DNA of 24,644 bases from a virus: UHGV virus genome UHGV-2020843. The stretch is one strand, 5' to 3'. Shown piece by piece: positions 5,381-20,738 of the stretch. Each line of letters begins with the position of its first letter. Within the stretch, counting starts at the first letter, position 1. Position numbers and translations under genes: made by a program. The notes under the pieces were generated by a model, which was given only the letters and a program-made list of their open reading frames with translations, made no database searches and was not told the DNA's origin.

Positions 5381-5674
5381 TCAGGATCGCGATTGCGTTC
5401 CAGCCAGGGGAGGTTCGGCGGTATACCCCTGTAAAGCTCTGCCCTGATTTCTCACAAACAGGCGAAGCCTTGTGTTTGCTTCATGCCTTGCCCGGTTCTC
5501 CTTGCGGTACGAAACGGGTTCGGCCTCGAACGTCTCCTGATACACTGCTGCATAACGCTGCATGGCTTTTTGTTTGGCGGCCATACTGAGTGACTGCAGT
5601 TGCTCACCTATCCACTGACTGTCCGCAAGGCAAAACACAGCTGGCATCTCTAACTGCTGAAATGCCTGTGACAT
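5381..5674 (-). CDS. Hypothetical protein (97 aa) immediately downstream of cro (cII-like position)
   Basis: In-frame ATG at 5674 lies 1 nt after the cro stop; the open frame extends to 5776 (131 aa) but that would overlap cro by about 100 nt. No recognisable similarity to lambda CII. Confidence 0.4.
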   Translation of the reverse strand: MSQAFQQLEMPAVFCLADSQWIGEQLQSLSMAAKQKAMQRYAAVYQETFEAEPVSYRKENRARHEANTRLRLFVRNQGRALQGYTAEPPLAGTQSRS

Positions 5675-5675
5675 A

Positions 5676-5906
5676 TCAGATATCCCCGGAAGGTCGTGGG
5701 AATACCGTTGGGATATCAGGCCGTAATTCGTATGGCTTAACCTCCCCGTTTGTAGCCATTGAGATAGCGACTGCATTTTGAGGGGAAATCTTCTGATGGT
5801 TGTTCAGCCACTTCCAAACAGCCCCCTGAGTGACACCGATGGCTCTAGCCAACGCAGATTGGCCCCCTGCCAATCTCACTGCTTTCTGAATAGCGTTTTC
5901 TGACAT
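5676..5906 (-). CDS. cro: Cro/YdaS-like helix-turn-helix regulator
   Basis: 76-aa ORF with HTH-like segment QSALARAIGVTQGAVWKW, divergent from the cI-like repressor across an operator-containing intergenic region. Confidence 0.7.
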   Translation of the reverse strand: MSENAIQKAVRLAGGQSALARAIGVTQGAVWKWLNNHQKISPQNAVAISMATNGEVKPYELRPDIPTVFPRPSGDI

Positions 5907-5922: not shown

Positions 5923-6010
5923 ATACTTTAGGATTTGGATGATATTACCATAGTATTAATTTAGCAAGAATACTCTAGTGTTGAATGGAAAAAGCTTTTG
6001 TACTAAATTA
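5923..6010. promoter_or_regulatory. Immunity switch: three operator sites (5923-5936, 5945-5958, 5970-5983) with divergent PR-like and PRM-like promoters
   Basis: Three 14-bp sites each 2 mismatches from palindrome AATACTATAGTATT, spaced 22-25 bp. Minus strand -35 TTGCTA (5963-5968) and -10 TATCAT (5940-5945), 17-bp spacer, for cro. Plus strand -35 TTGAAT (5982-5987) and -10 TAAATT (6005-6010), 17-bp spacer, for cI. Confidence 0.5.
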
Positions 6011-6039
6011 ATCCGATCGTATTAACCAGAGGCAAAAAC

Positions 6040-6747
6040 ATGAGTGGAACGACTTTTTCGGACCGGCTAAGAGACAGCATGCAGAAGGCTGGGCTGACCC
6101 AAAGCCAGTTAGCTGAAGCAGTCGGAGTGTCACAGGGGGCAATTCAGAAACTTGTATCTGGTAAGGCAAAGTCGACAACTAAGCTTGTTCAGATAGCTAA
6201 TGTCCTTGGTGTTCGCCCTGAATGGTTAAGCGAAGGCGTTGGTGCGATCCGTAAATCAGATGATTTCCCTCCAGAAGAAAAGTGGAGCAAAGTCGAGACC
6301 TGGGATAGCAACACGCCTTTAGAATCTGATGAAGTGGAAGTCCCATTCCTTAAAGATATTGAGTTTGCATGCGGTAGCGGCAGAGTTATGGAAGAAGATT
6401 ACAACGGTTATAAACTGAGGTTTTCGAAGTCTACCCTGAGAAGAGTTGGAGCAAGCACAGATGGTTCAGGCATTATCTGTTTCCCGGCTGCCGGGAACAG
6501 TATGGAACCACTCATACCAGACGGTACAACAGTGGCTGTTAACATCGAAGACAAAAAAATCGTTGATGGAAAGATTTACGCGATCAATCAGGAAGGGTGG
6601 AAGCGGATCAAACTCCTATACCGGACAGGCCCGGATGAGTTGACTATCCGTAGCTATAACGCAGAAGAGTACCCTGATGAGGTAGTGAAGATGTCCAGCG
6701 TAGAGGTCGTTGGTAGAGTGTTTTGGACTTCTACAGTTTGGAACTAA
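6040..6747 (+). CDS. cI: CI-type phage repressor (N-terminal HTH, C-terminal S24/LexA-like peptidase domain)
   Basis: 235 aa; HTH LTQSQLAEAVGVSQGAIQKL; C-terminal AGNSMEP Ser motif and downstream Lys (KRIK), typical of autocleaving LexA/CI repressors; GAGG ribosome-binding site upstream. Confidence 0.85.
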   Translation: MSGTTFSDRLRDSMQKAGLTQSQLAEAVGVSQGAIQKLVSGKAKSTTKLVQIANVLGVRPEWLSEGVGAIRKSDDFPPEEKWSKVETWDSNTPLESDEVEVPFLKDIEFACGSGRVMEEDYNGYKLRFSKSTLRRVGASTDGSGIICFPAAGNSMEPLIPDGTTVAVNIEDKKIVDGKIYAINQEGWKRIKLLYRTGPDELTIRSYNAEEYPDEVVKMSSVEVVGRVFWTSTVWN

Positions 6748-6748
6748 G

Positions 6749-6770
6749 CCGGGGAAACCCGGTTTTTTTT
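6749..6770 (+). terminator. Intrinsic terminator after cI
   Basis: CCGGG-GAAA-CCCGG hairpin followed by T8, immediately after the cI stop codon. Confidence 0.65.
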
Positions 6771-6828
6771 GCGAAAAAAAATAAAATCCATTATTTTCAT
6801 TAGGTTACATGAAAAAGAAAATAAGATT

Positions 6829-6869
6829 AATACTATAGTATTGACGCGGGATTAATCCTCCCCTATTCT
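6829..6869 (+). promoter_or_regulatory. PL-like early promoter with perfect palindromic operator
   Basis: Perfect 14-bp palindrome AATACTATAGTATT (6829-6842) overlapping -35 TTGACG (6841-6846); 17-bp spacer; -10 TATTCT (6864-6869); about 30 bp upstream of ORF 6901. Confidence 0.5.
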
Positions 6870-6900: not shown

Positions 6901-7221
6901 ATGACGACCAATACGACAATCAAAAAATTATATCAGCTTGTTGATATTCCAGATTTTCGCTACAGCAAAGATAGTTCAAGTATTGATTATGGTGATATTG
7001 CATCAGATTGCGATACTAAAACTGTTTCTATCTTTGAAGCCATTAACCATATCAGCTTAAATATTTTTTCCATTGCTGAAGATAAAGAAATCAGCAAAGA
7101 AAAGATATTAAACCTTTCTTGTATCATCGCTGACCTTGCAGAAATTGGAATGGCAACGAATAAAATTTCTCAAGCTGCCTCATATCTTTCTGGATTAAAG
7201 GATGGCAATCATGGCGCATGA
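6901..7221 (+). CDS. Hypothetical small acidic protein (106 aa), first gene after the PL-like promoter
   Basis: ORF in AT-rich segment directly downstream of predicted early promoter; no recognisable motif. Confidence 0.5.
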   Translation: MTTNTTIKKLYQLVDIPDFRYSKDSSSIDYGDIASDCDTKTVSIFEAINHISLNIFSIAEDKEISKEKILNLSCIIADLAEIGMATNKISQAASYLSGLKDGNHGA

Positions 7222-7405
7222 ATTTTCATTAGAACAAGCGAAAGAGAAAGCATATCAGGCAGAAATAATCTGCAAAATGATTGAGTTATACCCCAACAAA
7301 ATGGACTGTTCTGAAATCGAGGCCATTGCAGCATTATTAAGTAAGTTAACCAGTGATGTTTGTGCATGGTTAATTGAAGAGCAAGCTATTAGATCCAACG
7401 CTTAG
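7211..7405 (+). CDS. Hypothetical small acidic protein (about 65 aa)
   Basis: ORF overlapping the previous gene's end (alternative start at 7202); AT-rich. Confidence 0.45.
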   Translation: MAHEFSLEQAKEKAYQAEIICKMIELYPNKMDCSEIEAIAALLSKLTSDVCAWLIEEQAIRSNA

Positions 7406-7578
7406 TTTTTTTAGATTCCTAAATAAATAACAGCTTTATTGCTGAGGGGATTCCATACACTTTTTTAGGAAAAAACATGATAAACATCAACGCCTTTAAT
7501 ACTGCTAAGTTATTTTGTTCAGCCGGTTACTGGGATATTGCGAATTTATATCTCAGGAAAGCATACGGGAGATAAATC

Positions 7579-7803
7579 ATGTCAACACAAGATCGCCAAG
7601 ACGTGCAAGGTGTGAATATTAAAGCTGAACAACTTAACTTCCTTATGCAAACAATTCACGCTCACCATAAGGATTTTGACTGCCATCAACTTGATGGCCT
7701 TTTAGGTCTGGCTTATGACCTTGCCGGGTCGGTATATAGCTGGCCCGAGGCAGAGGAAAGGATCGTTTTAGAAAATGAAGATGCACAAAGAAAGGTGTAT
7801 TAA
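7579..7803 (+). CDS. Hypothetical small acidic protein (74 aa)
   Basis: ORF with GGGAG ribosome-binding site; stop TAA immediately followed by the next ATG. Confidence 0.5.
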   Translation: MSTQDRQDVQGVNIKAEQLNFLMQTIHAHHKDFDCHQLDGLLGLAYDLAGSVYSWPEAEERIVLENEDAQRKVY

Positions 7804-8169
7804 ATGGATAATTTAACCAATACGTATCGCCGAAGAATTTTAAAAGCTGCGTTATTACGCCACCAGCGTAAAACCGGAAGCACCTGCATCATTATTAATA
7901 TGCCTAAAGGTGGAATAAACACAGTCGAATTAACAGAAATACTGCTTGATGGTTTGTTGAGACGATTCGAAAAGCTGGCTCTCAGTGAATACGGGAATAT
8001 CGACGGTGTAAAAGCCATCAGAGGAATTTACAGCAACGCCGTAGATGTGAATGGCAGCGGTGAGTTCCTGACAGAAAGCGGAAAGGCATTAATCGACGAT
8101 CTCATTGCTGAGCTGGTCGAATTTGCTAAGAAACAAAAATCAGTCACAGCGGAGACAAGCCATGAGTGA
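7804..8169 (+). CDS. Hypothetical protein (121 aa) with arginine-rich N-terminus
   Basis: ORF begins MDNLTNTYRRRILKAALLRHQRK; contiguous with flanking ORFs. Confidence 0.5.
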   Translation: MDNLTNTYRRRILKAALLRHQRKTGSTCIIINMPKGGINTVELTEILLDGLLRRFEKLALSEYGNIDGVKAIRGIYSNAVDVNGSGEFLTESGKALIDDLIAELVEFAKKQKSVTAETSHE

Positions 8170-8374
8170 TCAGACACCAATTATCACGCACGAACCAGTA
8201 AATATCGTGCTGACAATCGAGAACGGGAAAGTTATCCACGCGCGCCCGGTTCAGAACGGCGAGGTTACAGCATCGCTGGAGACTTTTTTATGGATGGCTG
8301 AACAAGCCGGTTACACGATCACCCCACCTGCAGGAGAGAAGGACAATGGCCCTGACAGCGATACGAATTCCTGA
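8162..8374 (+). CDS. Hypothetical small acidic protein (70 aa); candidate antitoxin partner of the following ORF
   Basis: ATG at 8162 with GGAG ribosome-binding site 7 nt upstream; overlaps upstream stop and overlaps downstream ORF by 29 nt. Confidence 0.45.
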   Translation: MSDQTPIITHEPVNIVLTIENGKVIHARPVQNGEVTASLETFLWMAEQAGYTITPPAGEKDNGPDSDTNS

Positions 8375-8567
8375 GTGGGTGCACCTGCAGGCGGTCCATG
8401 TCCTCCGCCAGTTCAGAGCCAGGCGGATTCATCCCTGCCGTATGCACGGCTCCGGAAACCTGAGCCTGAGGGTTAATCGCCGCTGGCGGCTGCTGTCCCG
8501 AGACGGCGGCCATAACTGGGAAGTAATGAGCCATGAACGATACAGCAAACTGAAGGACAGAAAATGA
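8346..8567 (+). CDS. Candidate RelE/ParE/HigB-superfamily toxin-like protein (73 aa)
   Basis: Segment GSGNLSLRVNRRWRLLSRDGGHNWEVMSHERY resembles the RelE/HigB core (recalled E. coli HigB GGNELRVVAMVFF...YIREVMTHKEYD); strong ribosome-binding site GGAGAGAAGGA; GC-rich relative to neighbours. Confidence 0.4.
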   Translation: MALTAIRIPEWVHLQAVHVLRQFRARRIHPCRMHGSGNLSLRVNRRWRLLSRDGGHNWEVMSHERYSKLKDRK

Positions 8568-8880: not shown

Positions 8881-9275
8881 GCAAATCAGCAAAAGAGCTT
8901 TATACCGTACCTGAATGGATGCGCCCATACCTTACGTTATTCCAAAACACTGGAGGTAATGACGTTGAGGATCTGCTGCACGATGAAGACACCAATATGT
9001 TCGCAAATAGCATTCGGTACATGTTGATCGTGTCCGCTCGTTCACAATTCAGATTGCTGATGGATATGTATAAAAATGGGCAGATTATCGAGCTTGAAAC
9101 GATGAAAACAGACCCTGTTGGTGAAGATTATCAGTCAGCGATCGACATCTTGCGCGACAGAGCTGCTCGCGAACTCGATGGTGGTTTTCGCTCACATCAC
9201 AACGCCCTGATTTATGCAGCTAATGAACTGGAAAATGCCCAGGCCTTCGGGCGGGAGGTCAGCCATGAGTCTTGA
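8877..9275 (+). CDS. Hypothetical protein (132 aa)
   Basis: ORF with ATGA overlap to the upstream stop; no recognisable motif. Confidence 0.5.
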   Translation: MSKSAKELYTVPEWMRPYLTLFQNTGGNDVEDLLHDEDTNMFANSIRYMLIVSARSQFRLLMDMYKNGQIIELETMKTDPVGEDYQSAIDILRDRAARELDGGFRSHHNALIYAANELENAQAFGREVSHES

Positions 9276-9474
9276 TTGCGTACCCCTTTCTACGTACTGC
9301 AGGGACGCGGGGGAAACGGTAGAAGCCGTTAACAAACGGATACAAAGGGGGTTATGGAAGGAGGGAGTACATGTATTAAAAGTCGATGGCGTTAAAGAAC
9401 GCTGGATTGACTTAACGGAGGTTTCAAAGTGGGCAAGAAAGAACAAGGATCATTATCTCTCCCAAGAGGAGTAA
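9265..9474 (+). CDS. xis: Excisionase-like protein
   Basis: About 69 aa, immediately upstream of and overlapping the integrase; GGGAGG ribosome-binding site; small basic DNA-binding-like protein in the canonical xis position. Confidence 0.55.
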   Translation: MSLDCVPLSTYCRDAGETVEAVNKRIQRGLWKEGVHVLKVDGVKERWIDLTEVSKWARKNKDHYLSQEE

Positions 9475-10601
9475 CCATCCGCCAGCATAAAACTGGCGAC
9501 ACTCTGGTTATCACTTTCACATACAAAGGGGTTCTGTGCCGGGAGCCCCTCTCCAAAATGGAAGCAAACGCGCGCGGTGTGAAGTACGCCGAGCGCCTGC
9601 TCGGGGAGATACAGAACCAGATCGTCAGTGGCACCTTTGAATATGCGAAATATTTCCCCAACTCCAAAAAGCTGGAGCTATTCGGGGTGGTGAAGAAAAC
9701 CAAAAACATAAAGTCCTACCTGGACGAGTACCTCAAAATCTGCCAGAACCGCAACCTGTCCCCGTCGACTATAAATGGTTATGAAAAATGCCTGTCGGCA
9801 CTGTCAGCTCTGCATAAACTCCACGTGTCAGAACTGACGCCAGCGGTCCTTAAAAACTGGATAGCCAGCCGGAAAACAAAGCTGAAAACGACCAGGAATA
9901 ACCTTTCGTTTCTGCGCAGCGCAATCGATGAAGCTGTTACGGATGGCCTGCTGACCATTAACCCGGTAACCCTCGTCAGCGCCAGCCGGTACCACGTGAT
10001 CGACAGCAGCCCGAGCGCCGACGATTACGAGGTTGACCCGTTCACGCCAGCGGAGACCCTCGCCATTTACCAGAACTGCAGGTACCCGGAATGGGAAAAC
10101 CTGTTCCGCTTTGCTTTCAATACCGGTCTGCGGAGCTCCGAACTGTGCGCGCTGCGCTGGCCTGATCTCGACACCATCGCGAACACAGCCCACGTTCAGG
10201 CGGCCAGTGTCGTAGGGGTACTTAAAGGCACCAAGACAAAAGCCGGTACCCGCAAGGTGGAGCTGAACAGTGAGGCGCTGGCGGCCCTGCAGGCGCAGAA
10301 GCAATACACCTTTATGAAAAGTGAGTTCATATTCAGCGATCCGAAAACGGGAGAACCCTGGGCGAACGCCGACGCTATCCGTAAAAAAGCATGGGTGCCG
10401 ACCCTGAAAAAAGCTGGCGTGCGCTACCGTAACCCGTACCAGACGCGGCACACATTCGCCACCAAGCATATTAGCCAGGGCGTTAACCTCTTCTGGCTTG
10501 CCGGACAGATGGGCCACAAAGGGCCGGAAATGATATTCCGCAACTACGGTAAATACCTGGCTGAATATGACGGTAAAACCGCGATTTCAACCGCGCTGTA
10601 G
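9429..10601 (+). CDS. int: Tyrosine site-specific integrase (lambda Int-like)
   Basis: 390 aa; C-terminal catalytic region with RHTFATKH, GHKG and YGKY (R-H-R-Y type residues); located next to the attachment-site core. Confidence 0.85.
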   Translation: MGKKEQGSLSLPRGVTIRQHKTGDTLVITFTYKGVLCREPLSKMEANARGVKYAERLLGEIQNQIVSGTFEYAKYFPNSKKLELFGVVKKTKNIKSYLDEYLKICQNRNLSPSTINGYEKCLSALSALHKLHVSELTPAVLKNWIASRKTKLKTTRNNLSFLRSAIDEAVTDGLLTINPVTLVSASRYHVIDSSPSADDYEVDPFTPAETLAIYQNCRYPEWENLFRFAFNTGLRSSELCALRWPDLDTIANTAHVQAASVVGVLKGTKTKAGTRKVELNSEALAALQAQKQYTFMKSEFIFSDPKTGEPWANADAIRKKAWVPTLKKAGVRYRNPYQTRHTFATKHISQGVNLFWLAGQMGHKGPEMIFRNYGKYLAEYDGKTAISTAL

Positions 10602-10724
10602 CGGGGTAAATATTTCAAAATGTTGGACAGAATCAGGACGTTAGACAGACCTCAATATGCACGTAAAATGCACCTGAGGTATATCACAGTGAAAGAATTG
10701 TTTATTTTCAATGAGTTAAATGCC

Positions 10725-10760
10725 TTTCGGACGCGAGTTCAACTCCCGCCAGCTCCACCA
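10725..10760 (+). other. Attachment-site core: 36-nt copy of the 3' end of tmRNA (ssrA) ending in CCA, not a complete gene
   Basis: TTTCGGACGCGAGTTCAACTCCCGCCAGCTCCACCA matches the recalled 3' end of E. coli ssrA with one mismatch (A for G in the T-arm stem); sequence upstream does not resemble the ssrA body. Confidence 0.7.
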
Positions 10761-10807
10761 AAATTCTCCATCGGTGATTACCAGAGTCATCCGATGAAGT
10801 CCTAAGA

Positions 10808-10839: not shown

Positions 10840-10963
10840 GTGCCCTCAATTTGTCCCGCGAAGTCCGAAGAGAACTAATTAAATCCGAACCTTTTAGGCC
10901 CATTGATAGGCCCAACGAAAAGCTCTATTGTTTACGTTGGGCCTAAACGCAGGGAGACTCCCC

Positions 10964-12205
10964 ATGGCAAGAAAAACCAAGCCGTTAACTGATACGGAAA
11001 TCAAAGCCGCCAAACCTAAAGATGCCGATTACCAGCTTTATGACGGTGACGGGCTTACTCTGTTAATCAAGTCCAGTGGCAGTAAGCTTTGGCAATTCCG
11101 TTACTATCGGCCTTTGACCAAGCAGCGAACCAAACAGAGCTTCGGTGCCTATCCTGCCGTCTCGCTTTCTGATGCACGTAAACTCAGAGCCGAATCTAAA
11201 GTTTTATTGGCGAAAGACATTGATCCTCAGGAACATCAGAAAGAACAGGTGAGGAATTCTCAAGAGGCCAAAACCAATACCTTCTTGTTAGTTGCCGAGC
11301 GTTGGTGGAATGTGAAGAAAACCAGCGTAACAGAGGACTATGCCGACGATATCTGGCGCTCGCTTGAGAGAGATATTTTCCCGGCAATCGGTGATATCAG
11401 TATCACTGAGATTAAGGCTCATACTCTGGTTAAAGCAGTTCAGCCGGTTCAGGCCAGAGGTGCATTAGAGACTGTTCGCCGCCTTTGTCAGCGTATTAAC
11501 GAAGTCATGATTTATGCGCAGAACACAGGCCTGATTGATGCTGTTCCTAGTGTAAATATCGGAAAAGCTTTCGAGAAACCGCAAAAGAAAAACATGCCAA
11601 GCATCCGGCCGGATCAACTTCCGCAGCTAATGCACACCATGCGTACGGCAAGTATCAGCATGTCCACAAGATGCCTGTTCATGTGGCAACTTCTAACCAT
11701 CACCCGCCCTGCCGAAGCTGCTGAGGCTCGATGGGATGAGATCGATTTCAATGCTAGCGAATGGAAAATTCCTGCAGCTCGAATGAAGATGAACCGGGAC
11801 CATACGGTTCCACTATCTGATGGGGCTCTTGCTATTCTGGAAATGATGAAGCCTCTCAGTGGTGGCCGAGAATTTATCTTTCCTAGCCGTATCAAGCCCA
11901 ACCAACCAATGAATAGCCAAACAGTGAATGCAGCACTCAAGCGTGCTGGCTTAGGAGGTGTACTTGTTTCACACGGCTTGCGTTCTATCGCCAGTACGGC
12001 ACTCAATGAGGAAGGATTTCCACCTGATGTCATTGAAGCAGCGCTTGCTCATGTAGACAAAAATGAGGTGCGTCGCGCTTATAACCGCAGTGATTATCTT
12101 GAGCAACGTCGTCCGATGATGCAATGGTGGGCTGATCTCGTAAAAGCAGCAGATAGTGGTAGCATCGTTTTAACTCATTTGAGCAAAATTCGTCTTGTCG
12201 GATAA
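10964..12205 (+). CDS. intA: P4-type tyrosine integrase IntA
   Basis: 413 aa starting MARKTKPLTDTEIKAAKPKDADYQLYDGDGLTL; AGGGAG ribosome-binding site; C-terminal HGLRS...AHVDKNEVRRAYNRSDY catalytic region. Confidence 0.9.
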   Translation: MARKTKPLTDTEIKAAKPKDADYQLYDGDGLTLLIKSSGSKLWQFRYYRPLTKQRTKQSFGAYPAVSLSDARKLRAESKVLLAKDIDPQEHQKEQVRNSQEAKTNTFLLVAERWWNVKKTSVTEDYADDIWRSLERDIFPAIGDISITEIKAHTLVKAVQPVQARGALETVRRLCQRINEVMIYAQNTGLIDAVPSVNIGKAFEKPQKKNMPSIRPDQLPQLMHTMRTASISMSTRCLFMWQLLTITRPAEAAEARWDEIDFNASEWKIPAARMKMNRDHTVPLSDGALAILEMMKPLSGGREFIFPSRIKPNQPMNSQTVNAALKRAGLGGVLVSHGLRSIASTALNEEGFPPDVIEAALAHVDKNEVRRAYNRSDYLEQRRPMMQWWADLVKAADSGSIVLTHLSKIRLVG

Positions 12206-13789: not shown

Positions 13790-15199
13790 ATGTTCAATGG
13801 TCGTCCTTTCCCTGTAGATGCATTTCCTAAAATTATCAGGAATGCAATTTATGAAGTGGAACAGCATACGCAGGCCCCTCAAGGTTTGATTGCTGCTTCT
13901 GCTCTTGGGGTAATTTCTCTTGCCTGTCAGAACCGGATTGATGTTTGCCGATTGAATAATCTACGTGGCCCGGTATCACTTTTCTTAATGACTCTGGCTG
14001 AATCAGGTGAACGTAAGAGTACGGTTGATAAACTGCTGATGAAGCCATTATATCAACTGGAAGAGGATTTATTTGAAAAATACACCCACGATCTTACCGC
14101 ATGGAGAAATGATGAAGCAATTTTTAATATTGAAAAAAAAGCACTGATGTCAAAACTTAAATCAGATATTCGACGTAACAAAGATCACTTGGCAACAAAT
14201 GAAAGACTTAAAGAACTACTTACGACAAACCCGAAAGCTCCAGTGAGATTCAAATTTTTATTTAACGATGCCACACCTGCAGCTATTAAAGCTCATCTCT
14301 GTGGGCACTGGCGATCAGTCGGCATCATGTCTGATGAAGCTGGGATCATTTTTAATGGTTACACACTTAACGAGCTGCCGTTTATCAATAAGATGTGGGA
14401 TGGTTCAATATTTACGGTGGAAAGGAAAAACGAGCCCGAGAAATTAATTAGAGATGCAAGAATAACACTGTCGCTGATGGTCCAGCCTAATGTTTTTAAG
14501 GGTTATATCGACAGGAAAGGAGATATGGCAAAGGGGATTGGATTTTTTGCACGGTGCCTCATGTGCCAGCCTGCTTCAACACAAGGTAACAGAAAAATTT
14601 CCAACCCAATTTTTTCAAATGAACATTTGCCGGTATTTCACCAACGTCTTATGGAAATTGTTAATGAGAGCATCATTAAAATTAATGAAAATAATCGCAT
14701 CTGCCTCCGATTCTCTGCAGAAGCAGAAAGACATTGGATCGAATTCTACAACCAGGTCGAGTCAGAAATGAGAATGATTGGCCTTCTTTATGATTTTAAG
14801 GATTATGCTTCTAAAATGGCGGAGAACATGGCGAGGCTTGCTGCCTTACTTCATTACTTCAGCGGTGATGGAGGCGATATATCTGTTACCGCAGTAAAAG
14901 CAGCAGTGGAGATAGTGGCTTGGTATATTGAAGAATACATCCGCTTGTTCTCTAAAAAAGAAGAGTTTTCTTTAGATGTTTCAGAAGCAGATGAGCTTTA
15001 TTGTTGGATAAAAGATTACTGCACGCAAAAATTTTCTTCCTGCATCAAGAAAAATATTATCTTACAATTTGGGCCAAATAAATTTAGAAATCGTGACAAG
15101 GCAAATGAATTAATTAGAATCTTAATTTCACAAAACAAAATATTTATATCTTCATGGGGTAAAACAAAAATAATAAACATAACTCATTGTGTTTTTTGA
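13790..15199 (+). CDS. yfjI: YfjI, DUF3987-type protein (possible replication or primase-associated)
   Basis: 469-aa ORF in AT-rich region following alpA, matching CP4-57 order. Confidence 0.75.
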   Translation: MFNGRPFPVDAFPKIIRNAIYEVEQHTQAPQGLIAASALGVISLACQNRIDVCRLNNLRGPVSLFLMTLAESGERKSTVDKLLMKPLYQLEEDLFEKYTHDLTAWRNDEAIFNIEKKALMSKLKSDIRRNKDHLATNERLKELLTTNPKAPVRFKFLFNDATPAAIKAHLCGHWRSVGIMSDEAGIIFNGYTLNELPFINKMWDGSIFTVERKNEPEKLIRDARITLSLMVQPNVFKGYIDRKGDMAKGIGFFARCLMCQPASTQGNRKISNPIFSNEHLPVFHQRLMEIVNESIIKINENNRICLRFSAEAERHWIEFYNQVESEMRMIGLLYDFKDYASKMAENMARLAALLHYFSGDGGDISVTAVKAAVEIVAWYIEEYIRLFSKKEEFSLDVSEADELYCWIKDYCTQKFSSCIKKNIILQFGPNKFRNRDKANELIRILISQNKIFISSWGKTKIINITHCVF

Positions 15200-15351
15200 T
15201 TTTAATGACAATCTAAAAGGACTTAATTTAAGAGTAAAAACAAACTCTAAACCCAGTTCGGATAAAAGCTTGTCATCTTGATAGGTAATATATAGGTACA
15301 TAGACACATCAGAACGATCACTTACTCCAATATCATTGGCCAGGATACTAT

Positions 15352-15978
15352 ATGACATACGATAGTGAATTCGGATCACATGTATCCCTATATCGGGATA
15401 GAATCAAACAGGTTATTGATGACTCCCTAAACGAACATCTTAACTCAATGATTCTACGTGTTGATCTGCATGACCCAATTGATACAGAAAATATGGATAA
15501 CCCATTCTTTCAACCCAGGGTTGACTCTGGTGCTATATCTCGCTTTACCAGTGCGTTAAAAGCAAAGCTTAAACACGATAAGCATATTAAAACTCAACGG
15601 AAAGACTGGCCTGATACTCGACATTCAACCTTACGTTACGCATGGGTCCGAGAATATACCAAAAATAGAAAGCGGCATTACCATTTGATACTGTGTTTCA
15701 ATCAGGATGCTTATTATCATTTAGGTGATTACGACTTAAACCGTAACACGTTACGTACAATGATAACGACAGCTTGGTACAGTGCACTTGGCATCCCTAT
15801 AGATAGCTCGGGGAAGTTAGTTAATTACCCGCCAAATGGCAAATACCTTCTCAATCGTAAAAGGGACAACTTTGAGCAGACTTATAGCGATTTGATGAAT
15901 AGGGTGGATTACATGACCAAAGTAAGGACTAAAATAGTCGGTGACGGAGACCGTAATTTCGGCTGCAGTCGCGGGTAA
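15352..15978 (+). CDS. yfjJ: YfjJ, YagK/YfjJ-family protein (inovirus Gp2-like replication-initiation fold)
   Basis: 208-aa ORF with AGGA ribosome-binding site, followed by a hairpin terminator. Confidence 0.7.
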   Translation: MTYDSEFGSHVSLYRDRIKQVIDDSLNEHLNSMILRVDLHDPIDTENMDNPFFQPRVDSGAISRFTSALKAKLKHDKHIKTQRKDWPDTRHSTLRYAWVREYTKNRKRHYHLILCFNQDAYYHLGDYDLNRNTLRTMITTAWYSALGIPIDSSGKLVNYPPNGKYLLNRKRDNFEQTYSDLMNRVDYMTKVRTKIVGDGDRNFGCSRG

Positions 15979-15996
15979 TTTATTTTTTACAACAAT

Positions 15997-16035
15997 GGCC
16001 TTTCTTATGGCTGGAAAGGCCTGATTTGTTTGTAT
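15997..16035 (+). terminator. Intrinsic terminator between convergent yfjJ and yfjK
   Basis: GGCCTTTC-9 nt loop-GAAAGGCC hairpin followed by T-rich TGATTTGTTTGTATT. Confidence 0.6.
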
Positions 16036-16155
16036 TAAGATATCGGTAATCTTTTGATGGTTGGAAGCCCGTCCTGGTAGACGACCTAGCCTACCGAAGA
16101 TGTGAGTTATTCAAAAATGTCGCTTTCCCGCGTTCCGTAGACAAACGTACCTAAA

Positions 16156-18345
16156 TCAATGTCGTCTAATACCGAGCGCGCGCCTGATAAACATCTGATC
16201 AACGTACCCAATCGATCTACTCCAAATGTCCTGAGTATCCCGAAGATACTGGCTCAACTCATCCACATCAGCCTCGTCGGAAAATTCCAGCAAGTCTACC
16301 AGTCGGTGTAACGTCTGAATGGGAATGCCAATCTCTTCTAAGGCATTGACACCTGGTGGTAGATGGAAACTTTCGAACGCCAATTTGACATGTGTGTAAT
16401 CGACTTTGCTGCGTATACCACGCTTTACAGCGTGGTGTTTAACTACATCCTCCATCAAGCTGAGCACCTTAGGTAGGGTATAGCCGAAGGTATTGGTTAT
16501 GAGCTTCAAATCATTGTTGAGGGCAATGGAAAGAGTACGTTTCTCCCCTTCAGAAATCCACTGTCGTGCATAATCGATCTGATTTTTCAGATATTCCGAA
16601 TAACTTTCAGCACTTAAATAGCCGGCAAGTTTTGCGATCATGACATCCGTAGGCTTAACAGGGACCCCATTGCGACTGAACGTATGGGGAACCAGTCTGG
16701 CAATGATCTTTGCAAAGGTCTTGAGGAAGTTTGTCGCGGGAGTCCAGTGAAACACTAACGAGGAAAATTCGTTATCGTCCATCATCTCGAACATGCTTTG
16801 CAGCATTTCGAACTGCTCGACACGGAAGTACGAATGCTTCTTCACAAGGTCGATGGAAACACGGTCGTTTATGAAAACCTCATCAAAGCGATCCTGTGAA
16901 AACTCGGACAAGTGGTCTGGTTGAACGCTGGCTAACAGGTTGATTGGGGTATCAATGCCCTGAATACCGAGCGGAATATCCACCTCTTGATTGAGATTGT
17001 CTTCCGGGATTTCCTCCAGGCAAAAGATTTTGCCGACGAAGTGAACGCCCATGCGCCCGGCGCGACCTTTGATGTTCCCATGGGTGAATTTGTCAATGCT
17101 GCGAGTTCCATCGCGGTTGTCGTAGATCACAACGTTCTTAGCGATAGTGTTGACTCCTTCAATGATCGTGGAGGTGCAGAGCAAAAAGCGCAGTTTTCCA
17201 GCATTGAATTGGTCGGCAGTGTATTGCTGCAGTGCCCTCGGTAGCGCGCCAAAATGCAAGCCAATACCGTTTCTAAGGGCGACTGTGTAATCCCAGTCGG
17301 CATCGAACTCTTCGCTGACCCAGTCGACATGGGGATTCTCAGTCGGAGTGCCATGCCCAAGCCTGATCAGCTCGCGCGCCACCAGGCCCGCAACAGTTGG
17401 TGACTTGCAATAAATGATCGTTGCGTCGACACATGCGTGCGCGATTTCCCCCAGCGCTTTGAGCTTGGCTTTGTCGTCATTCGCTTTGATGCCGAACGTC
17501 TTAACATCTAGCGCGACTGTATTGAAGTCGGTAGAAACGAAAGTATGCGGATATCCAAGTTTTTCGAGACCGCGAATGCTGTTAACGAACGGTCCCGTCA
17601 GGTAAAACTGCCTGGAGACCTTAAGCAGTTTGCTTAACGCAATGTTGAGCTCGATGACTCGTTCGTCTTGATGATCAATGTCCCCGCTTTTCAGTTGTCG
17701 GAACGCCAACTTGTAAAACTCGTCAATGACGAAGAGGTCAATGTCGACGATGTCGTCACGCTCGTTCACTCGCTCCTGAGTTAACACATAAACAGCCTGA
17801 TCGGAATGGCACACTTGGGAACTGTGGTGGATGATCTGATATCGGTCACCGAATCGCTCTTGCAGTCGGCGACGGGTTTCGTCGGCAAGAGCCACGGTTG
17901 GAACAACCAGAACAAGCCGTTTCAAAGTTCCCATGCCGAGCAATGAATCGACGATTGCACTTTTGCCCATGCTTGTAGGTGCACTCAGCACCACGTTTTG
18001 ACCAGACTTGAGCAGATCGAATATGTGGAACTGCATTGAGTGGAAAACATAACCATCCGAGAATGGCGTCCGGTATAGCTCAAGCACCCTCAGGTCATCC
18101 GGTGTCAGGCTGGTGAACTCCTTTTTGAGATACGGGAACAAACCTGATTTTCTCACCATATTTTTCAAAATTGTGGTGTGCTCGGAAAACCGCTCGCGCG
18201 AATCGAGAGCTCGCACGATCAAGTCCCGTCCCAAGTCATACGAAACAGGGTTAGACAACAGCTTGTTAACCGCAAACAGATAATTGAACGATGAGAAGTC
18301 CTCACCCTGCAGGCTATGTTTCGCCTGTTCATAGATCTCTGTCAT
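16156..18345 (-). CDS. yfjK: SF2 helicase YfjK (AbpB), Hachiman-type defence helicase HamB homologue
   Basis: 729 aa with Walker A LSAPTSMGKS and DEAD/DExH-like VIDEFYKL; ATGA overlap with the upstream yfjL stop. Confidence 0.85.
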   Translation of the reverse strand: MTEIYEQAKHSLQGEDFSSFNYLFAVNKLLSNPVSYDLGRDLIVRALDSRERFSEHTTILKNMVRKSGLFPYLKKEFTSLTPDDLRVLELYRTPFSDGYVFHSMQFHIFDLLKSGQNVVLSAPTSMGKSAIVDSLLGMGTLKRLVLVVPTVALADETRRRLQERFGDRYQIIHHSSQVCHSDQAVYVLTQERVNERDDIVDIDLFVIDEFYKLAFRQLKSGDIDHQDERVIELNIALSKLLKVSRQFYLTGPFVNSIRGLEKLGYPHTFVSTDFNTVALDVKTFGIKANDDKAKLKALGEIAHACVDATIIYCKSPTVAGLVARELIRLGHGTPTENPHVDWVSEEFDADWDYTVALRNGIGLHFGALPRALQQYTADQFNAGKLRFLLCTSTIIEGVNTIAKNVVIYDNRDGTRSIDKFTHGNIKGRAGRMGVHFVGKIFCLEEIPEDNLNQEVDIPLGIQGIDTPINLLASVQPDHLSEFSQDRFDEVFINDRVSIDLVKKHSYFRVEQFEMLQSMFEMMDDNEFSSLVFHWTPATNFLKTFAKIIARLVPHTFSRNGVPVKPTDVMIAKLAGYLSAESYSEYLKNQIDYARQWISEGEKRTLSIALNNDLKLITNTFGYTLPKVLSLMEDVVKHHAVKRGIRSKVDYTHVKLAFESFHLPPGVNALEEIGIPIQTLHRLVDLLEFSDEADVDELSQYLRDTQDIWSRSIGYVDQMFIRRALGIRRH

Positions 18346-19958
18346 ACGACCTCTCTCACCTTCTCATCAACTAATTGGGTTAACCGCTCAAGACTCGGGG
18401 CTGGATAAATGAATACGTGGATGCAAAGATTCGCAAACGGCGAATCCTCGATGAGGTCAGCCGCGAATTTTTCGAACAGCACCGCTGTTTCTTTCTCCAG
18501 GTCATCCTCGAACCCCGGCGTTTCAGGCTCGGTTAGTAGATTAGAGTCGTAGCCCACGAACAGAACAAACGTGAAACGATCGAGGTGAGCATCGAAAGGT
18601 TGGCTGCCATCAAGAATTTCGTCAATGTCGTGGCGAAGCAGGTAGTTATCGTCTTTAATGTCGAGGATTTTTTTGCGCGCGGTATCGATGCAATCCGAAA
18701 TGTCCTCGTACAACTGATCCCGTATCTCCGGCAATCTGACGGCAATGTTAATATCAGTCACCAACTCGCTGAAGCCAATCCAAAGCTGATCACCTTCTGG
18801 ATCGCGGCGAACGATATGCACGTTTTCAAGAATTTTTTCGGCCCCTGCTTTTTCCACGTATAGCATGCAAGGAATAGGCTGGCTTTCGTGGTGCTGCCGG
18901 ATCGTTGCGTGCAACAGCACTCGACCCAAAAATTCGCTGACGTCATGGAGCGATTTGAAGACGGAATTCTTTAGTCGTTCTCGCTTTTCAATGAATGTCA
19001 GTTTATGAATATCAGACATTTCTTTTGGTCGGAGAAAAACCTCATCCAACCATTGACAGACGTTATCCGCGATGTGCTTGTAGCGGTATTTCTTAAGTGA
19101 GTACTGCTGATGTAGAACCTGGCCTTTACGCTTAGCGCAGACCGAAGCCATAGGCGCTCTAAATGGCGTAAGGATGTGGGGTAAGTCCCGTTTGACGTAG
19201 ATTTTGCGGCCTGACCGAGATTGGTCATCTTCGACACGCTGCTTGAACCACTCAAGTAGGTCTGGTCGTAAGTAGGACTTGTCATCAGCACTGTGAATGC
19301 GTCGAGAATGCTCGCCCTTGCGCGTCACAGTATCAAGGATGCGGCACCAAATGTCTTCGGCGACGGTTTCGGAACTGAGAATGACCCCATGTAGATCTTG
19401 GGAGGCCAGCCGTATGTTCTTGATCCCTAGAAGTTCCAGTTCGCGCAGGGATGAAAACACTTCCCATGTAGCCGCATCGATCCAATCTGAAACGCTTATA
19501 CCTGAGTCTGTTAAAAAATTGTCTGTGCGTTTGTTGAGGTCATCGATGAGTTCCTGTCGACCTGGCTTATCTAGTCGGGCGTTTGGGCTGATCGTCAAGT
19601 ACTCAAGGGTTTTGTTGACCTTTTCCTCTGTGACGATGGAGTACCTACGTCCAAGGGACAGGTCAGACTCACACTGCATTGATTTGTGCAAAATTGAACT
19701 GCAGGGGATCGTCTTTTTATCAGCACCTTTTGAATTCTGAACGATGTCCGAAATGTTCCAACGTGTTTTGCCGGTGCTTTTTACCTGAACGAAGTCGATG
19801 TATCCATCAGATACAATGTCGATATCGTCTGTGACCTCGCAGCGCACACTGCGGATAGTCTTGTCACGAAGCATTCGGGTGACATGGTAAGCGGCTACGC
19901 AGTCCTGAAATAAGAAACCGTGCTTGGCGGCTACTCCGCCTGAATCGTTCGACTCCAT
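18342..19958 (-). CDS. yfjL: YfjL (AbpA), Hachiman-type defence effector HamA homologue (DUF1837-type)
   Basis: 538-aa ORF immediately upstream of and translationally coupled to the helicase, in the conserved CP4-57 position. Confidence 0.8.
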   Translation of the reverse strand: MESNDSGGVAAKHGFLFQDCVAAYHVTRMLRDKTIRSVRCEVTDDIDIVSDGYIDFVQVKSTGKTRWNISDIVQNSKGADKKTIPCSSILHKSMQCESDLSLGRRYSIVTEEKVNKTLEYLTISPNARLDKPGRQELIDDLNKRTDNFLTDSGISVSDWIDAATWEVFSSLRELELLGIKNIRLASQDLHGVILSSETVAEDIWCRILDTVTRKGEHSRRIHSADDKSYLRPDLLEWFKQRVEDDQSRSGRKIYVKRDLPHILTPFRAPMASVCAKRKGQVLHQQYSLKKYRYKHIADNVCQWLDEVFLRPKEMSDIHKLTFIEKRERLKNSVFKSLHDVSEFLGRVLLHATIRQHHESQPIPCMLYVEKAGAEKILENVHIVRRDPEGDQLWIGFSELVTDINIAVRLPEIRDQLYEDISDCIDTARKKILDIKDDNYLLRHDIDEILDGSQPFDAHLDRFTFVLFVGYDSNLLTEPETPGFEDDLEKETAVLFEKFAADLIEDSPFANLCIHVFIYPAPSLERLTQLVDEKVREVV

Positions 19959-20217
19959 TTAGACATCCGTGACAATTTTGCGAAAATTAAGGAGATGTTA
20001 TGACACAGTCCAATCGGATCACTGCATCATCACCAGTGATCTAAATACTTCACAGCCATTCTCGGTCGCAGGTATCAAGCTTTTCAGGATTCCACAAATA
20101 TTGTAACCCTGACGTCTAATTTGGTTATATAACATACTGCCCCAACTAACGTAAGGTAGGCACAGCCTTAATCAAGGTTTTGGTTTTCAAATAGTTCAGA
20201 GCTGAGACCGCCAACCG

Positions 20218-20284
20218 CACTATGGCACTATGGCACTATGGCACTATGGCACTATGGCACTATGGCACTATGGCACTATGGCAC
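20218..20284. repeat. Perfect tandem octamer repeat (TATGGCAC) x 8, intergenic
   Basis: Eight uninterrupted copies of TATGGCAC (20221-20284) preceded by a partial CAC; lies between the yfjM stop and the yfjL start. Confidence 0.95.
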
Positions 20285-20333
20285 CGCCAGCGATTGTAAT
20301 CACACTTGATATTATAAAACACAGTTGCACGCA

Positions 20334-20597
20334 TTATTTCCTGGTTGGTAGGGTCATATCTCGATGCTCTTTGAGCAATGTCAACATCGCGTGTTCATGG
20401 CTTTCTATATTGTTGATGCCTTGCCCATCCGGACCCCACTCCTTATAGCTCATCATGATGGCTTGTTTTGGGCTCTCTGCTCGTTCTGTTTCGACGTAGA
20501 ATTTTTTCTTGTCTGCTGGCGAATAATTACTAAGTATCGAGTTGCTGCTTGGTGAGATCAGGAAGAGGTTACCGAAACGATGGACATCATCCCCCAT
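20334..20597 (-). CDS. yfjM: Small uncharacterised island protein YfjM
   Basis: 87-aa ORF in the CP4-57 position between yfjL and rnlA. Confidence 0.6.
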
Positions 20598-20738
20598 TTT
20601 GTGGACTGCCCCCCCGGTAGACGATCCTGCCCTATAGTTGGAGTGCCCCCTATTCAGGTGGCTAAATTTAGCAAATCAATACACTTCAGGGGGGTATTAT
20701 TGTAGAGTTTCCCCATATGTTTCTATGGGATCCAGGAA

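What the first reader, a model, noticed from the sequence alone, without database searches (positions are those of the whole stretch)
6901..7803. AT-rich small acidic ORFs directly after the PL-like early promoter: candidate anti-defence or exclusion genes
The first genes after the predicted early promoter are three small, acidic, AT-rich ORFs (106, about 65 and 74 aa) with no recognisable motifs, plus a possible 32-aa ORF at 7468-7566. Small acidic proteins expressed first from an early promoter are the classic signature of anti-restriction or other anti-defence proteins, and the region flanking cI is a known hotspot for accessory genes in lambdoid phages.
Basis: inference. Interest (0 to 1): 0.55.

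Follow-up and report, generated by a model that had tools for sequence, protein, structure and literature searches.

The report
Small early genes after prophage repressor
Four small genes just downstream of the repressor of a Fels-1-like prophage are real, conserved, early-expressed helical-hairpin proteins of unknown function; the first two occupy a slot that related phages fill with different genes, which suggests, but does not show, a counter-defence role.

Summary
All four are under purifying selection (dN/dS about 0.1) and AT-rich (34-43% GC). o1, o2 and o4 are mildly acidic (pI 4.6-4.8); o3 is basic.

They match only PHROG families of unknown function. Pfam, NCBIfam, PADLOC, PDB sequence searches and fold searches give nothing. 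The o1 and o4 models are plain helical hairpins, and o2 is a distant paralogue of o4.

Comparison with about 170 related loci splits the region. o1-o2 is one of at least eight alternative cassettes in a variable slot between the repressor and o3. o3-(o4)-o5 is a conserved block.

The published Fels-1 study shows that its left operon is repressor-controlled and induced by DNA damage. That makes exclusion in the lysogen unlikely.

The anti-defence reading is therefore partly supported: by position only, and only for o1-o2. Function remains unknown. The most likely role is protein-binding inhibitors made at the onset of lytic growth. Interest is moderate to low.

The parts
6746..6775 (+). Intrinsic terminator after cI: 8-bp G+C-rich stem, 4-nt loop and a T9 run. 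It insulates the downstream genes from cI (PRM-type) transcription.
   Evidence: Terminator scan and the sequence itself.
6828..6867 (.). OL-like operators. TAATACTATAGTATTGA (6828-6844) overlaps the -35. A weaker copy, ATTAATCCTCCCCTATT (6851-6867), overlaps the spacer and -10. Both belong to the same repeat family as the OR sites at 5943-5959 and 6009-6025.
   Evidence: the repeat finder families D1, D2, I3 and I5.
6841..6869 (+). PL-like sigma-70 promoter: TTGACG, 17-nt spacer, TATTCT.
   Evidence: Promoter scan. This is a consensus match only. Support for function comes from the operator overlap and from Fels-1 experiments on the homologous operon (PMC3121763).
6901..7221 (+). o1: 106 aa, pI 4.8, phrog_2583. 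The AF2 model is an N-terminal segment packed on a two-helix hairpin (H30-60, H66-103). Invariant motifs are IPD, DCDTKT and ATNKI..Y..G. It is the first gene of the operon and the first half of the exchangeable o1-o2 cassette.
7211..7405 (+). o2: 64 aa (the ORF could start at 7202), pI 4.6, phrog_1478. It overlaps the end of o1 by 11 nt, which suggests translational coupling. It is a distant paralogue of o4.
7431..7454 (+). Conserved intergenic hairpin CAGC-TTTATT-GCTG followed by AGGGGATTCC, about 30 nt upstream of o3. The stem is kept by compensatory changes in relatives. Function unknown.
   Evidence: (93% of cells paired, 4 of 4 pairs with double changes, 0 of 500 shuffles reach this). 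There is a single copy in the window and no Rfam match.
7477..7575 (+). o3: a conserved 32-aa basic microprotein with consensus M.NK.AFKTA.L..SAGYW.IA.L.LKKAYGR. It is usually unannotated and is the first gene of the conserved block.
   Evidence: (dN/dS 0.11).
7579..7803 (+). o4: 74 aa, pI 4.75, phrog_8959. The AF2 model is a two-helix hairpin (H3-32, H35-73) with an invariant His cluster, H27/H29/H30, plus D34 at the tip. It belongs to the conserved block but is absent from KPP5665-2-type phages.
7804..8169 (+). o5: 121 aa, phrog_1737. It lies outside the finding but is the anchor of the conserved o3-(o4)-o5 block and is about three times more widespread than o1 (319 against 112 IMG/VR relatives).

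Best explanation
The region is the promoter-proximal end of the early-left (PL-type) operon of a Fels-1-like temperate phage integrated in an Enterobacter-type genome. In the lysogen the CI-like repressor sits on operators that overlap the promoter, so the genes are silent. On infection or SOS induction they are the first products of leftward transcription, which runs on to xis and int.

The four genes fall into two units. o1-o2 is a translationally coupled, exchangeable two-gene cassette. It occupies a variable slot between the repressor and o3, which related phages fill with at least seven other cassettes. o3-o4, continuing into o5, belongs to a block conserved across the lineage.

The modelled products, o1 and o4, are simple antiparallel helical hairpins. 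o2 is inferred to be one by paralogy with o4, and o3 from its sequence pattern. None carries catalytic or DNA-binding motifs.

The most likely mode of action is stoichiometric binding to, and inhibition or redirection of, another protein at the onset of lytic development.

For the exchangeable o1-o2 cassette the target is most probably a strain-variable host or co-resident-prophage factor. My estimates are about 0.3 for a defence system, about 0.2 for a repressor or regulator, about 0.2 for a housekeeping host protein, and the rest for something else. For the conserved o3-o4 genes a lineage-core regulatory or host-takeover role is more likely.

Shown here: gene reality, operon anatomy, the operator and promoter arrangement, the split into variable slot and conserved block, and the hairpin folds as predictions. 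Inferred: the timing of expression (by homology with Fels-1), the protein-binding mechanism, and every target.
For: Anatomy:
- cro (-), cI (+), terminator, operator-overlapped promoter, then o1 to o9, xis and int on one strand with overlapping or abutting genes.

Gene reality:
- dN/dS is 0.09-0.14.
- There are 69, 22 and 173 homologue clusters for o1, o2 and o4.
- Independent gene calls agree.

Synteny:
- In 93 loci anchored on o1 the order cI-o1-o2-gap-o3-(o4)-o5 is kept.
- The cassette sits next to at least 10 repressor types, 86-219 nt after the repressor stop codon.

Variable slot:
- In o5-anchored loci o1-o2 is present in about 24 of 74.
- The other loci carry cassettes such as [101 aa + stand-alone S24 peptidase], [71 + 72 aa + S24], [HTH protein + S24], a 137-aa protein, and others.

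Fold:
- AF2 gives pLDDT 87 for o1 and 85 for o4, both helical hairpins.
- The o2/o4 paralogy rests on PHROG cross-hits (E 4.6e-6), an in-register hhalign match (E 0.006) and a merged alignment.

Expression control by homology:
- In Fels-1, which carries o1 (57% identity), o2, o3, an o4-family gene and o5 in the same order, the CI-like repressor FsoR is cleaved on mitomycin C treatment.
- A left-operon gene product, FsoA, is under FsoR control and accumulates after DNA damage (PMC3121763).
- That study also shows that a small left-operon protein of this lineage acts by binding another protein, the Gifsy-2 repressor.
Against: No target, partner or phenotype is known for any of the four proteins, so the protein-binding mechanism rests on fold simplicity and analogy. 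Helical hairpins are generic, and every fold match has E above 0.3.

Promoter and operators are consensus or repeat matches. They were not tested in this phage.

The o5-anchored sample is the 80 closest of 319 relatives, so the cassette frequencies are biased.

o1-o2 is under ordinary purifying selection, with no sign of an arms race at the sequence level.

The o1 family is tiny, with 27 representatives among 1.84 billion proteins. That limits inference from diversity.
Confidence: 0.45

Rival explanations
1. One reading: o1, o2 and o4 are anti-defence proteins (anti-restriction or another counter-defence), made first from the early promoter to disarm host immunity before phage DNA is attacked.
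For: They are the first genes after an early, repressor-controlled promoter. o1-o2 sits in a slot with at least eight alternative cassettes between conserved flanks. That pattern marks anti-CRISPR and other anti-defence loci in other phages (established knowledge, not tested here). The proteins are small, helical and mildly acidic. Lambda's PL operon does carry ral and gam (established knowledge). The host region next to the prophage carries Hachiman and RnlA, so defences are present locally.
Against: There is no profile, sequence or fold similarity to any known anti-defence family. Acidity is ordinary (14-18% D+E, pI 4.6-4.8; cI itself has pI 5.1), so a DNA mimic is unlikely. o3 and o4 are not in the variable slot. 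Homologues occur only in this phage lineage, never in plasmid leading regions or other anti-defence islands. Sister cassettes contain S24 peptidase and HTH proteins, which point to regulation rather than counter-defence. During induction of a resident prophage, restriction is not an issue.
Confidence: 0.25
2. Regulatory binders of repressors or activators: o1-o2, and possibly o4, act like the small trans-acting antirepressors of Gifsy and Fels-1 prophages, or like TraM-type anti-activators. They would bind a transcription factor, either the phage's own or that of a co-resident prophage, to lock in lytic commitment or to cross-induce neighbours.
For: The Fels-1 left operon encodes such a protein, FsoA, under CI-like repressor control (PMC3121763). 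Alternative cassettes in the same slot carry a conserved stand-alone S24 (CI/UmuD-type) domain protein, and in some loci an HTH protein of the CI type, so the slot has a regulatory flavour. The best PDB fold match of o1, although not significant, is the TraM anti-activator hairpin (2q0o, probability 0.96, E 0.56).
Against: The Fels-1 interval that contains fsoA has no homologue in this window. The o1-o2 cassette combines freely with at least 10 repressor types, which argues against a target in the phage's own repressor. The fold match is generic.
Confidence: 0.15
3. Host-takeover proteins of the Kil, cIII or Gam type: small early-left proteins that inhibit a conserved host housekeeping function, such as cell division, FtsH or Lon proteolysis, or RecBCD, to favour phage development.
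For: This is the classical content of lambdoid PL operons (established knowledge). The operon here has no recognisable gam, kil or cIII, so analogues could be hidden among the unknown genes. The strict conservation of o3-o4-o5 across the lineage fits a conserved host target.
Against: No similarity to any of these families was found. A conserved host target does not explain why o1-o2 is replaced by unrelated cassettes in two thirds of relatives.
Confidence: 0.12
4. Superinfection-exclusion or other lysogenic-conversion genes, expressed in the lysogen to protect it from other phages, as rexAB does next to lambda cI.
For: They lie next to cI, where lambda carries rexAB. The DNA is AT-rich and looks like a moron.
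Against: A strong terminator separates them from cI, and their own promoter is overlapped by operator copies. The homologous Fels-1 operon is repressed until induction (PMC3121763). There are no PADLOC hits for these proteins or for the sister cassettes. There are no membrane or nuclease features.
Confidence: 0.04

Closest known systems
Left-operon genes of Salmonella phage Fels-1 (STM0898.7n, .6n, an unannotated 35-aa ORF, .4n and .3n), downstream of the repressor FsoR (STM0898)
   Same: The order and orientation are the same: cro, CI-like S24 repressor, o1 (57% identity), o2 (47%), o3 (67%), an o4-family gene (phrog_8959), o5 (46%), and eventually xis and int. The same helicase and P4-type primase replication module lies on the other side. 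Repressor control and DNA-damage induction of this operon are experimentally shown for Fels-1 (PMC3121763).
   Different: The immunity type differs, because the repressor is not detectably similar. Fels-1 has an extra 61-aa gene after o2 and a longer distal part that includes fsoA and an ORF6N-like gene, both absent here. The window instead carries a ParE-like gene (o7). None of the shared genes has been characterised in Fels-1 either.
Accessory genes of the lambda and P22 PL operons (ral, sieB, cIII, kil, gam, abc)
   Same: They are small, non-essential proteins transcribed leftward from a repressor-controlled early promoter, between the immunity region and xis-int. Several act by binding host proteins.
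   Different: There is no sequence or profile similarity. There is no N-type antiterminator gene or nutL between the promoter and the first gene. The only conserved hairpin is single-copy and lies after o2. No recombination genes are present.
Small trans-acting antirepressors GftA, GfoA and FsoA (Lemire et al. 2011)
   Same: They are small proteins of enterobacterial prophages. FsoA lies in the left operon of the closest characterised relative and works by binding a repressor.
   Different: The fsoA-bearing segment of Fels-1 is not in this window. Sequence relatedness could not be tested. Gifsy antirepressors are LexA-controlled and located elsewhere in the genome.
Variable anti-defence loci flanked by conserved genes (for example, anti-CRISPR loci of Mu-like Pseudomonas phages, and T7 gene 0.3 ocr as the first early gene)
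   Same: Alternative, unrelated small-protein cassettes occupy one fixed genomic slot, with early expression and promoter-proximal position.
   Different: No member of this slot has a known anti-defence function or similarity to one. Some cassettes carry S24 peptidase or HTH proteins. Acidity is well below that of Ocr or ArdA DNA mimics.

Membership tests
PHROG families phrog_2583 (o1), phrog_1478 (o2) and phrog_8959 (o4); all of unknown function | Full-length profile match | tested here: met
   E-values are 1.9e-41, 1.3e-26 and 1.1e-27, over nearly the whole profile in each case.
Known anti-restriction and anti-defence families (Ocr, ArdA, ArdB/KlcA, Ral, Gam, anti-CRISPRs and others, as represented in Pfam, PHROGs and the PDB) | Sequence or profile similarity to a member | tested here: not met
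   No Pfam or NCBIfam hit at E up to 1. PHROG hits are to unknown-function families only. PDB sequence and profile searches are empty or chance. Dedicated anti-defence HMM sets (dbAPIS, AntiDefenseFinder) were not available.
Known anti-restriction and anti-defence families | Fold similarity to a solved or predicted anti-defence protein | tested here: not met
   Foldseek of the o1 and o4 models against PDB, and of o1 against BFVD, gives best E values of 0.36-0.56, all to generic helical hairpins. o2 and o3 were not modelled.
DNA-mimic anti-restriction proteins (Ocr or ArdA type) | Very high negative charge density (roughly pI 4 or below and at least 25% Asp+Glu; threshold from general knowledge) | tested here: not met
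   D+E is 14%, 16% and 18%, and pI is 4.80, 4.63 and 4.75, for o1, o2 and o4.
Known anti-restriction and anti-defence families | Restores phage plating on a defence-carrying host | not testable with these tools
   Needs experiments.
Lambdoid early housekeeping genes (N, cIII, Kil, Gam, Bet, Exo) | Profile similarity to annotated PHROG or Pfam families | tested here: not met
   No hit to any annotated family.
N-type antitermination module | A small basic Arg-rich protein as the first PL gene, plus paired nut (boxA/boxB) sites in both early operons | tested here: not met
   o1 is acidic. The leader before o1 is only about 25 nt. The one conserved hairpin (7431-7444) is single-copy in the window.
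Gifsy/Fels-1 small antirepressors (GftA, GfoA, FsoA) | Sequence relatedness to FsoA or GftA | tested here: inconclusive
   The Fels-1 interval that holds fsoA (around STM0898.1n and STM0896) has no homologue in the window (tblastn). The published protein sequences are in a figure and could not be retrieved.
Gifsy/Fels-1 small antirepressors | Derepresses a prophage when expressed alone | not testable with these tools
   Needs experiments.
Superinfection-exclusion or defence genes next to cI (rexAB type) | Expressed in the lysogen (co-transcribed with cI or from a constitutive promoter) | tested here: not met
   A terminator lies between cI and o1, and an operator overlaps the only predicted promoter. 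This is a sequence inference, supported by Fels-1 data (PMC3121763).
Superinfection-exclusion or defence genes | Match to a known defence protein model | tested here: not met
   PADLOC gives no hits for o1-o9 or for the sister cassettes, apart from generic HTH matches.

The most novel reading that the evidence does not exclude
The slot directly downstream of the PL-type promoter of Fels-1-like enterobacterial phages is an unrecognised counter-defence, or prophage-crosstalk, hotspot. o1-o2 and at least seven sister cassettes would each neutralise a different host defence or rival-prophage regulator through small helical-hairpin binders. The slot could then be mined by guilt-by-location for new inhibitor families, as anti-CRISPR loci were.
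Probability: 0.22. Interest if true: 0.7.

Novelty: new member of a known kind. Interest (0 to 1): 0.35.

Why it matters
If o1-o2 and its sister cassettes prove to be inhibitors of host immunity or of rival prophage repressors, this fixed, easily recognised slot would be a compact source of new small protein inhibitors. Its flanks are the repressor and terminator on one side and the o3-o5 block on the other, and it occurs in hundreds of Enterobacter, Klebsiella, Salmonella, Citrobacter and E. coli prophages.

Even without that, the analysis adds three things. It assigns four uncharacterised genes, one of them a 32-aa microprotein that annotation pipelines skip, to defined units of a widespread prophage operon. 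It shows which part is exchangeable and which is core. And it shows that these genes cannot be filed as anti-defence genes from sequence alone.

Tried and rejected
- Family searches. Pfam, NCBIfam and PADLOC scans of o1-o9 gave nothing for o1-o4.
- PDB searches. phmmer and profile searches returned only chance hits, such as designed 'Pizza' and TPR proteins.
- Fold searches. Foldseek of the o1 model against PDB and BFVD, and of the o4 model against PDB, returned generic hairpins only.
- Remote homology. An exhaustive profile search with o1 against 1.84 billion representatives found only 27 relatives. None has a Pfam domain, and the two very long hits are repeat or coiled-coil noise.
- o1 as a relative of o2/o4. 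Rejected by hhalign, E 0.1-0.5.
- The 101-aa first gene of the alternative cassette as a divergent o1. Rejected.
- The stand-alone S24 protein of sister cassettes as a relic of the neighbouring cI. Rejected, because it is its own conserved family and only 20-39% identical to the resident CI.
- nut-like or Rfam RNA elements. The conserved hairpin is single-copy with no Rfam match.
- Homologues in plasmids. The only hits are excised phage genomes filed as 37-42 kb non-mobilizable plasmids.
- Depositor names of homologues. 'Recombination-related exonuclease' (KPP5665-2 GP36) and 'methyl-accepting chemotaxis protein' (Erwinia) have no support in any profile search.
- Literature. Searches for the PHROG ids and for anti-defence in lambdoid early-left operons found nothing on these families.
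Full report
**1. What is in the sequence**

The window carries the immunity region and left arm of a temperate phage.
- A Cro-like gene (YdaS/P22_Cro Pfam) lies at 5676-5906 on the minus strand.
- A CI-like repressor (HTH_3 plus Peptidase_S24) lies at 6040-6747 on the plus strand.
- The cro-cI intergenic region contains palindromic 17-mers at 5943-5959 and 6009-6025.
- cI ends in a strong intrinsic terminator (6746-6775).
- A sigma-70-type promoter follows: TTGACG, 17-nt spacer, TATTCT (6841-6869).
- Its -35 is overlapped by a third copy of the 17-mer (6828-6844). A weaker copy covers the spacer and -10.

The promoter itself is only a consensus match.

Downstream, on the same strand and almost without gaps, lie these genes:
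- o1: 6901-7221, 106 aa.
- o2: 7211-7405, 64 aa. Homologues and independent gene calls start at MAHE, so the start is 7211 rather than 7202.
- A 71-nt gap.
- o3: 7477-7575, 32 aa.
- o4: 7579-7803, 74 aa.
- o5: 7804-8169.
- o6: 8162-8374.
- o7: 8346-8567, a ParE-like protein.
- Three more small ORFs, then an excisionase (9214-9474) and an integrase (9429-10601).

**2. Check of the observation**

The lengths, coordinates and AT-richness are as described. The exception is the 32-aa ORF, which is at 7477-7575 rather than 7468-7566 and is basic rather than acidic.

Every ORF has a Shine-Dalgarno sequence at proper spacing.

The ORFs are genes, not chance.
- o1, o2 and o4 have 69, 22 and 173 homologue clusters, all in Enterobacterales and all named 'hypothetical'.
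- The 32-aa ORF is conserved at the protein level in Klebsiella, Salmonella, Escherichia, Cronobacter and Aeromonas phages. It is usually not annotated there.
- Nei-Gojobori dN/dS against relatives is 0.14, 0.12, 0.11 and 0.09 for o1 to o4, at synonymous divergences above 1.

The acidity is real but unremarkable. D+E is 14-18% and pI is 4.6-4.8. cI has pI 5.1, and o6, o8 and o9 are more acidic still.

The low GC is a property of this block in all relatives. The median is 39%, against 54% for the helicase gene in the same loci.

**3. What the proteins look like**

Nothing matches in Pfam, NCBIfam, PADLOC or PDB sequences. The only family matches are PHROGs of unknown function: phrog_2583, phrog_1478 and phrog_8959.

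The AlphaFold2 model of o1 has pLDDT 87. It is an N-terminal segment packed against a long two-helix hairpin. The invariant residues (IPD, DCDTKT, ATNKI..Y..G) cluster at the open end of the hairpin.

The model of o4 has pLDDT 85. It is a bare two-helix hairpin with an invariant HAHH..FD motif at the tip.

Foldseek against PDB and BFVD finds only generic hairpins, with E of at least 0.36. These include the TraM anti-activator, FadA, the histidine-kinase DHp domain and the ING4 dimerisation domain.

o2 and o4 are distant paralogues.
- o2 hits the o4 PHROG at E 4.6e-6, and o4 hits the o2 PHROG at E 0.0024.
- hhalign aligns 50 columns in register.
- A merged alignment shares the KA.Q motif, the DC loop, a Trp after helix 2 and the EE motif.
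- Iterated HMM searches of all fetched loci recover only o2-type and o4-type proteins, one to three per locus.

o1 is unrelated to them. Its family is very small, with 27 representatives at 50% identity among 1.84 billion proteins. None has a Pfam domain.

o3 reads like a single TPR-like helix-turn-helix.

**4. Comparative anatomy**

Anchoring on o1 gave 8 genome loci and 80 IMG/VR loci, to which the reference phages were added. The order cro, repressor, o1, o2, gap, o3, (o4), o5, (o6), o7 is kept almost everywhere. The o1-o2 pair sits 86-219 nt after the stop codon of at least ten different repressor types. It is therefore not tied to one immunity specificity.

Anchoring on o5 changes the picture. 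o5 has 319 IMG/VR relatives against 112 for o1. I examined the 74 of the 80 closest o5 loci that have a recognisable repressor.
- o3-(o4)-o5 is constant.
- The stretch between the repressor and o3 (480-1950 nt) is variable.
- o1+o2 fills it in about 24 loci.

The other loci carry different cassettes:
- a 101-aa protein plus a stand-alone S24 peptidase protein (about 8 loci);
- 71-aa and 72-aa proteins plus the same S24 protein (about 18);
- a 143-169-aa protein plus S24 (about 6), where one version has an N-terminal CI-type HTH domain;
- a 137-aa protein (5);
- 73 + 88 aa (3);
- 130 + 113 + 78 aa (4);
- 66 + 51 + 140 aa (4);
- and a few others.

None of these has a known function or a PADLOC match. 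The S24 protein is a conserved family of its own, not a remnant of the neighbouring cI.

- an exchangeable promoter-proximal cassette, o1-o2;
- the start of a lineage-conserved block, o3-o4-o5.

The sample is biased towards close relatives of the window, so the proportions are indicative only.

**5. Experimental anchor from the literature**

The closest characterised phage is Salmonella Fels-1. It has o1 (57% identity), o2 (47%), o3 (67%), an o4-family gene, o5 and o6 in the same order after its repressor.

Lemire, Figueroa-Bossi and Bossi (PLoS Genet 2011, PMC3121763) showed the following:
- The Fels-1 repressor FsoR is CI-like and is cleaved after mitomycin C treatment.
- The left operon is under FsoR control.
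- One of its small products, FsoA, accumulates after DNA damage and inactivates the repressor of the unrelated Gifsy-2 prophage.
- FsoA is dispensable for Fels-1 induction.

The fsoA segment is not present in this window.

The study supports two inferences here. The operon is silent in the lysogen and early after induction. Small left-operon proteins of this lineage can work by binding other proteins.

**6. Interpretation**

The best-supported account is this. These are early, repressor-controlled, small helical-hairpin proteins that most probably act as stoichiometric binders of other proteins at the onset of lytic growth.

For the exchangeable o1-o2 cassette a strain-variable target is most plausible. 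That target could be a host defence or a rival-prophage regulator. For the conserved o3-o4 genes a core regulatory or host-takeover role is more plausible.

It also loses several:
- It applies only to o1-o2.
- There is no similarity of any kind to known anti-defence proteins.
- The charge is ordinary.
- No homologue lies outside this phage lineage, and the 'plasmid' hits are excised phage genomes.
- Sister cassettes look regulatory.

Exclusion in the lysogen is unlikely, given the terminator, the operators and the Fels-1 data.

I rate anti-defence for o1-o2 at about 0.25-0.3. No single specific function rates above that.

**7. Novelty and score**

The genes are already catalogued as hypothetical proteins and unknown-function PHROGs. 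They belong to a familiar kind: small accessory genes of a lambdoid early-left operon.

What is new here is modest:
- the split into a variable slot and a conserved block;
- the o2/o4 paralogy;
- the conserved but unannotated 32-aa gene;
- a covarying hairpin in the o2-o3 gap.

A specialist would not be surprised. The slot is a reasonable place to look for new inhibitors, but nothing yet shows that it holds any. Interest: 0.35.

Noticed in passing
window 7477-7575: A 32-aa basic microprotein (o3, ...LYLRKAYGR) is conserved at the protein level across Fels-1-like phages of at least six genera, with dN/dS 0.11. It is skipped by most annotations and by the gene calls in public assemblies. It always lies immediately upstream of the o4 or o5 homologue.
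   Followed up: yes
window 7431-7454: A short hairpin, CAGC-TTTATT-GCTG followed by AGGGGATTCC, lies in the o2-o3 gap. Its 4-bp stem is maintained by compensatory changes in 40 distinct relatives: 93% of cells paired, all 4 pairs with double changes, 0 of 500 shuffles reaching this, and slid controls at 26-47%. It follows the o1-o2 cassette and at least one other cassette, and is absent where an S24 gene abuts o3. It is single-copy in the window, has no Rfam match and has no known function.
   Followed up: partly
window 8162-8567: o6 (70 aa, pI 4.3, phrog_340) overlaps o7 by 29 nt. o7 is 73 aa, pI 11.8, and matches Pfam ParE_like PF24732 at E 1.7e-19. The pair looks like an antitoxin-toxin pair embedded in the early-left operon, and it is conserved in most relatives.
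   Followed up: partly
L005:3537-3923, L004:4500-4894 and about 33 IMG/VR loci (e.g. L118, L140): Many relatives carry a conserved stand-alone S24 peptidase protein (128-131 aa, GDSM and K motifs, phrog_6201) as an early gene in the slot that o1-o2 occupies here. In some loci an HTH protein precedes it. It is only 20-39% identical to the resident CI, so it is not a relic of it. A UmuD-like or repressor-interfering role is possible.
   Followed up: partly
window 10669-10800 and 10928-12205: A tmRNA-like fragment (Rfam E 1.2e-5, below the gathering score) lies just after the phage integrase. A second tyrosine integrase follows. The prophage probably sits at ssrA in tandem with another integrative island.
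   Followed up: no
window 13790-21812: The neighbouring AT-rich island carries a Hachiman defence system: HamA at 18342-19958(-), PADLOC E 2.8e-266, and HamB at 16156-18345(-), E 4.2e-220. It also carries an RnlA-type toxin (20739-21812, with three RnlA Pfam domains), a DUF3987 protein (13790-15199) and a YagK/YfjJ-like protein (15352-15978).
   Followed up: partly
L002 (Fels-1) 5502-5687: Fels-1 has an extra 61-aa gene (phrog_20558) between o2 and the hairpin. Its sequence pattern resembles another helical hairpin, but the o2/o4 HMM does not recover it.
   Followed up: partly
L003 (Klebsiella phage KPP5665-2) 4992-5306; protein P0065 (Erwinia rhapontici): Depositor names for o1 homologues, 'recombination-related exonuclease' and 'methyl-accepting chemotaxis protein', have no support in any profile or fold search and appear to be annotation artefacts.
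   Followed up: yes
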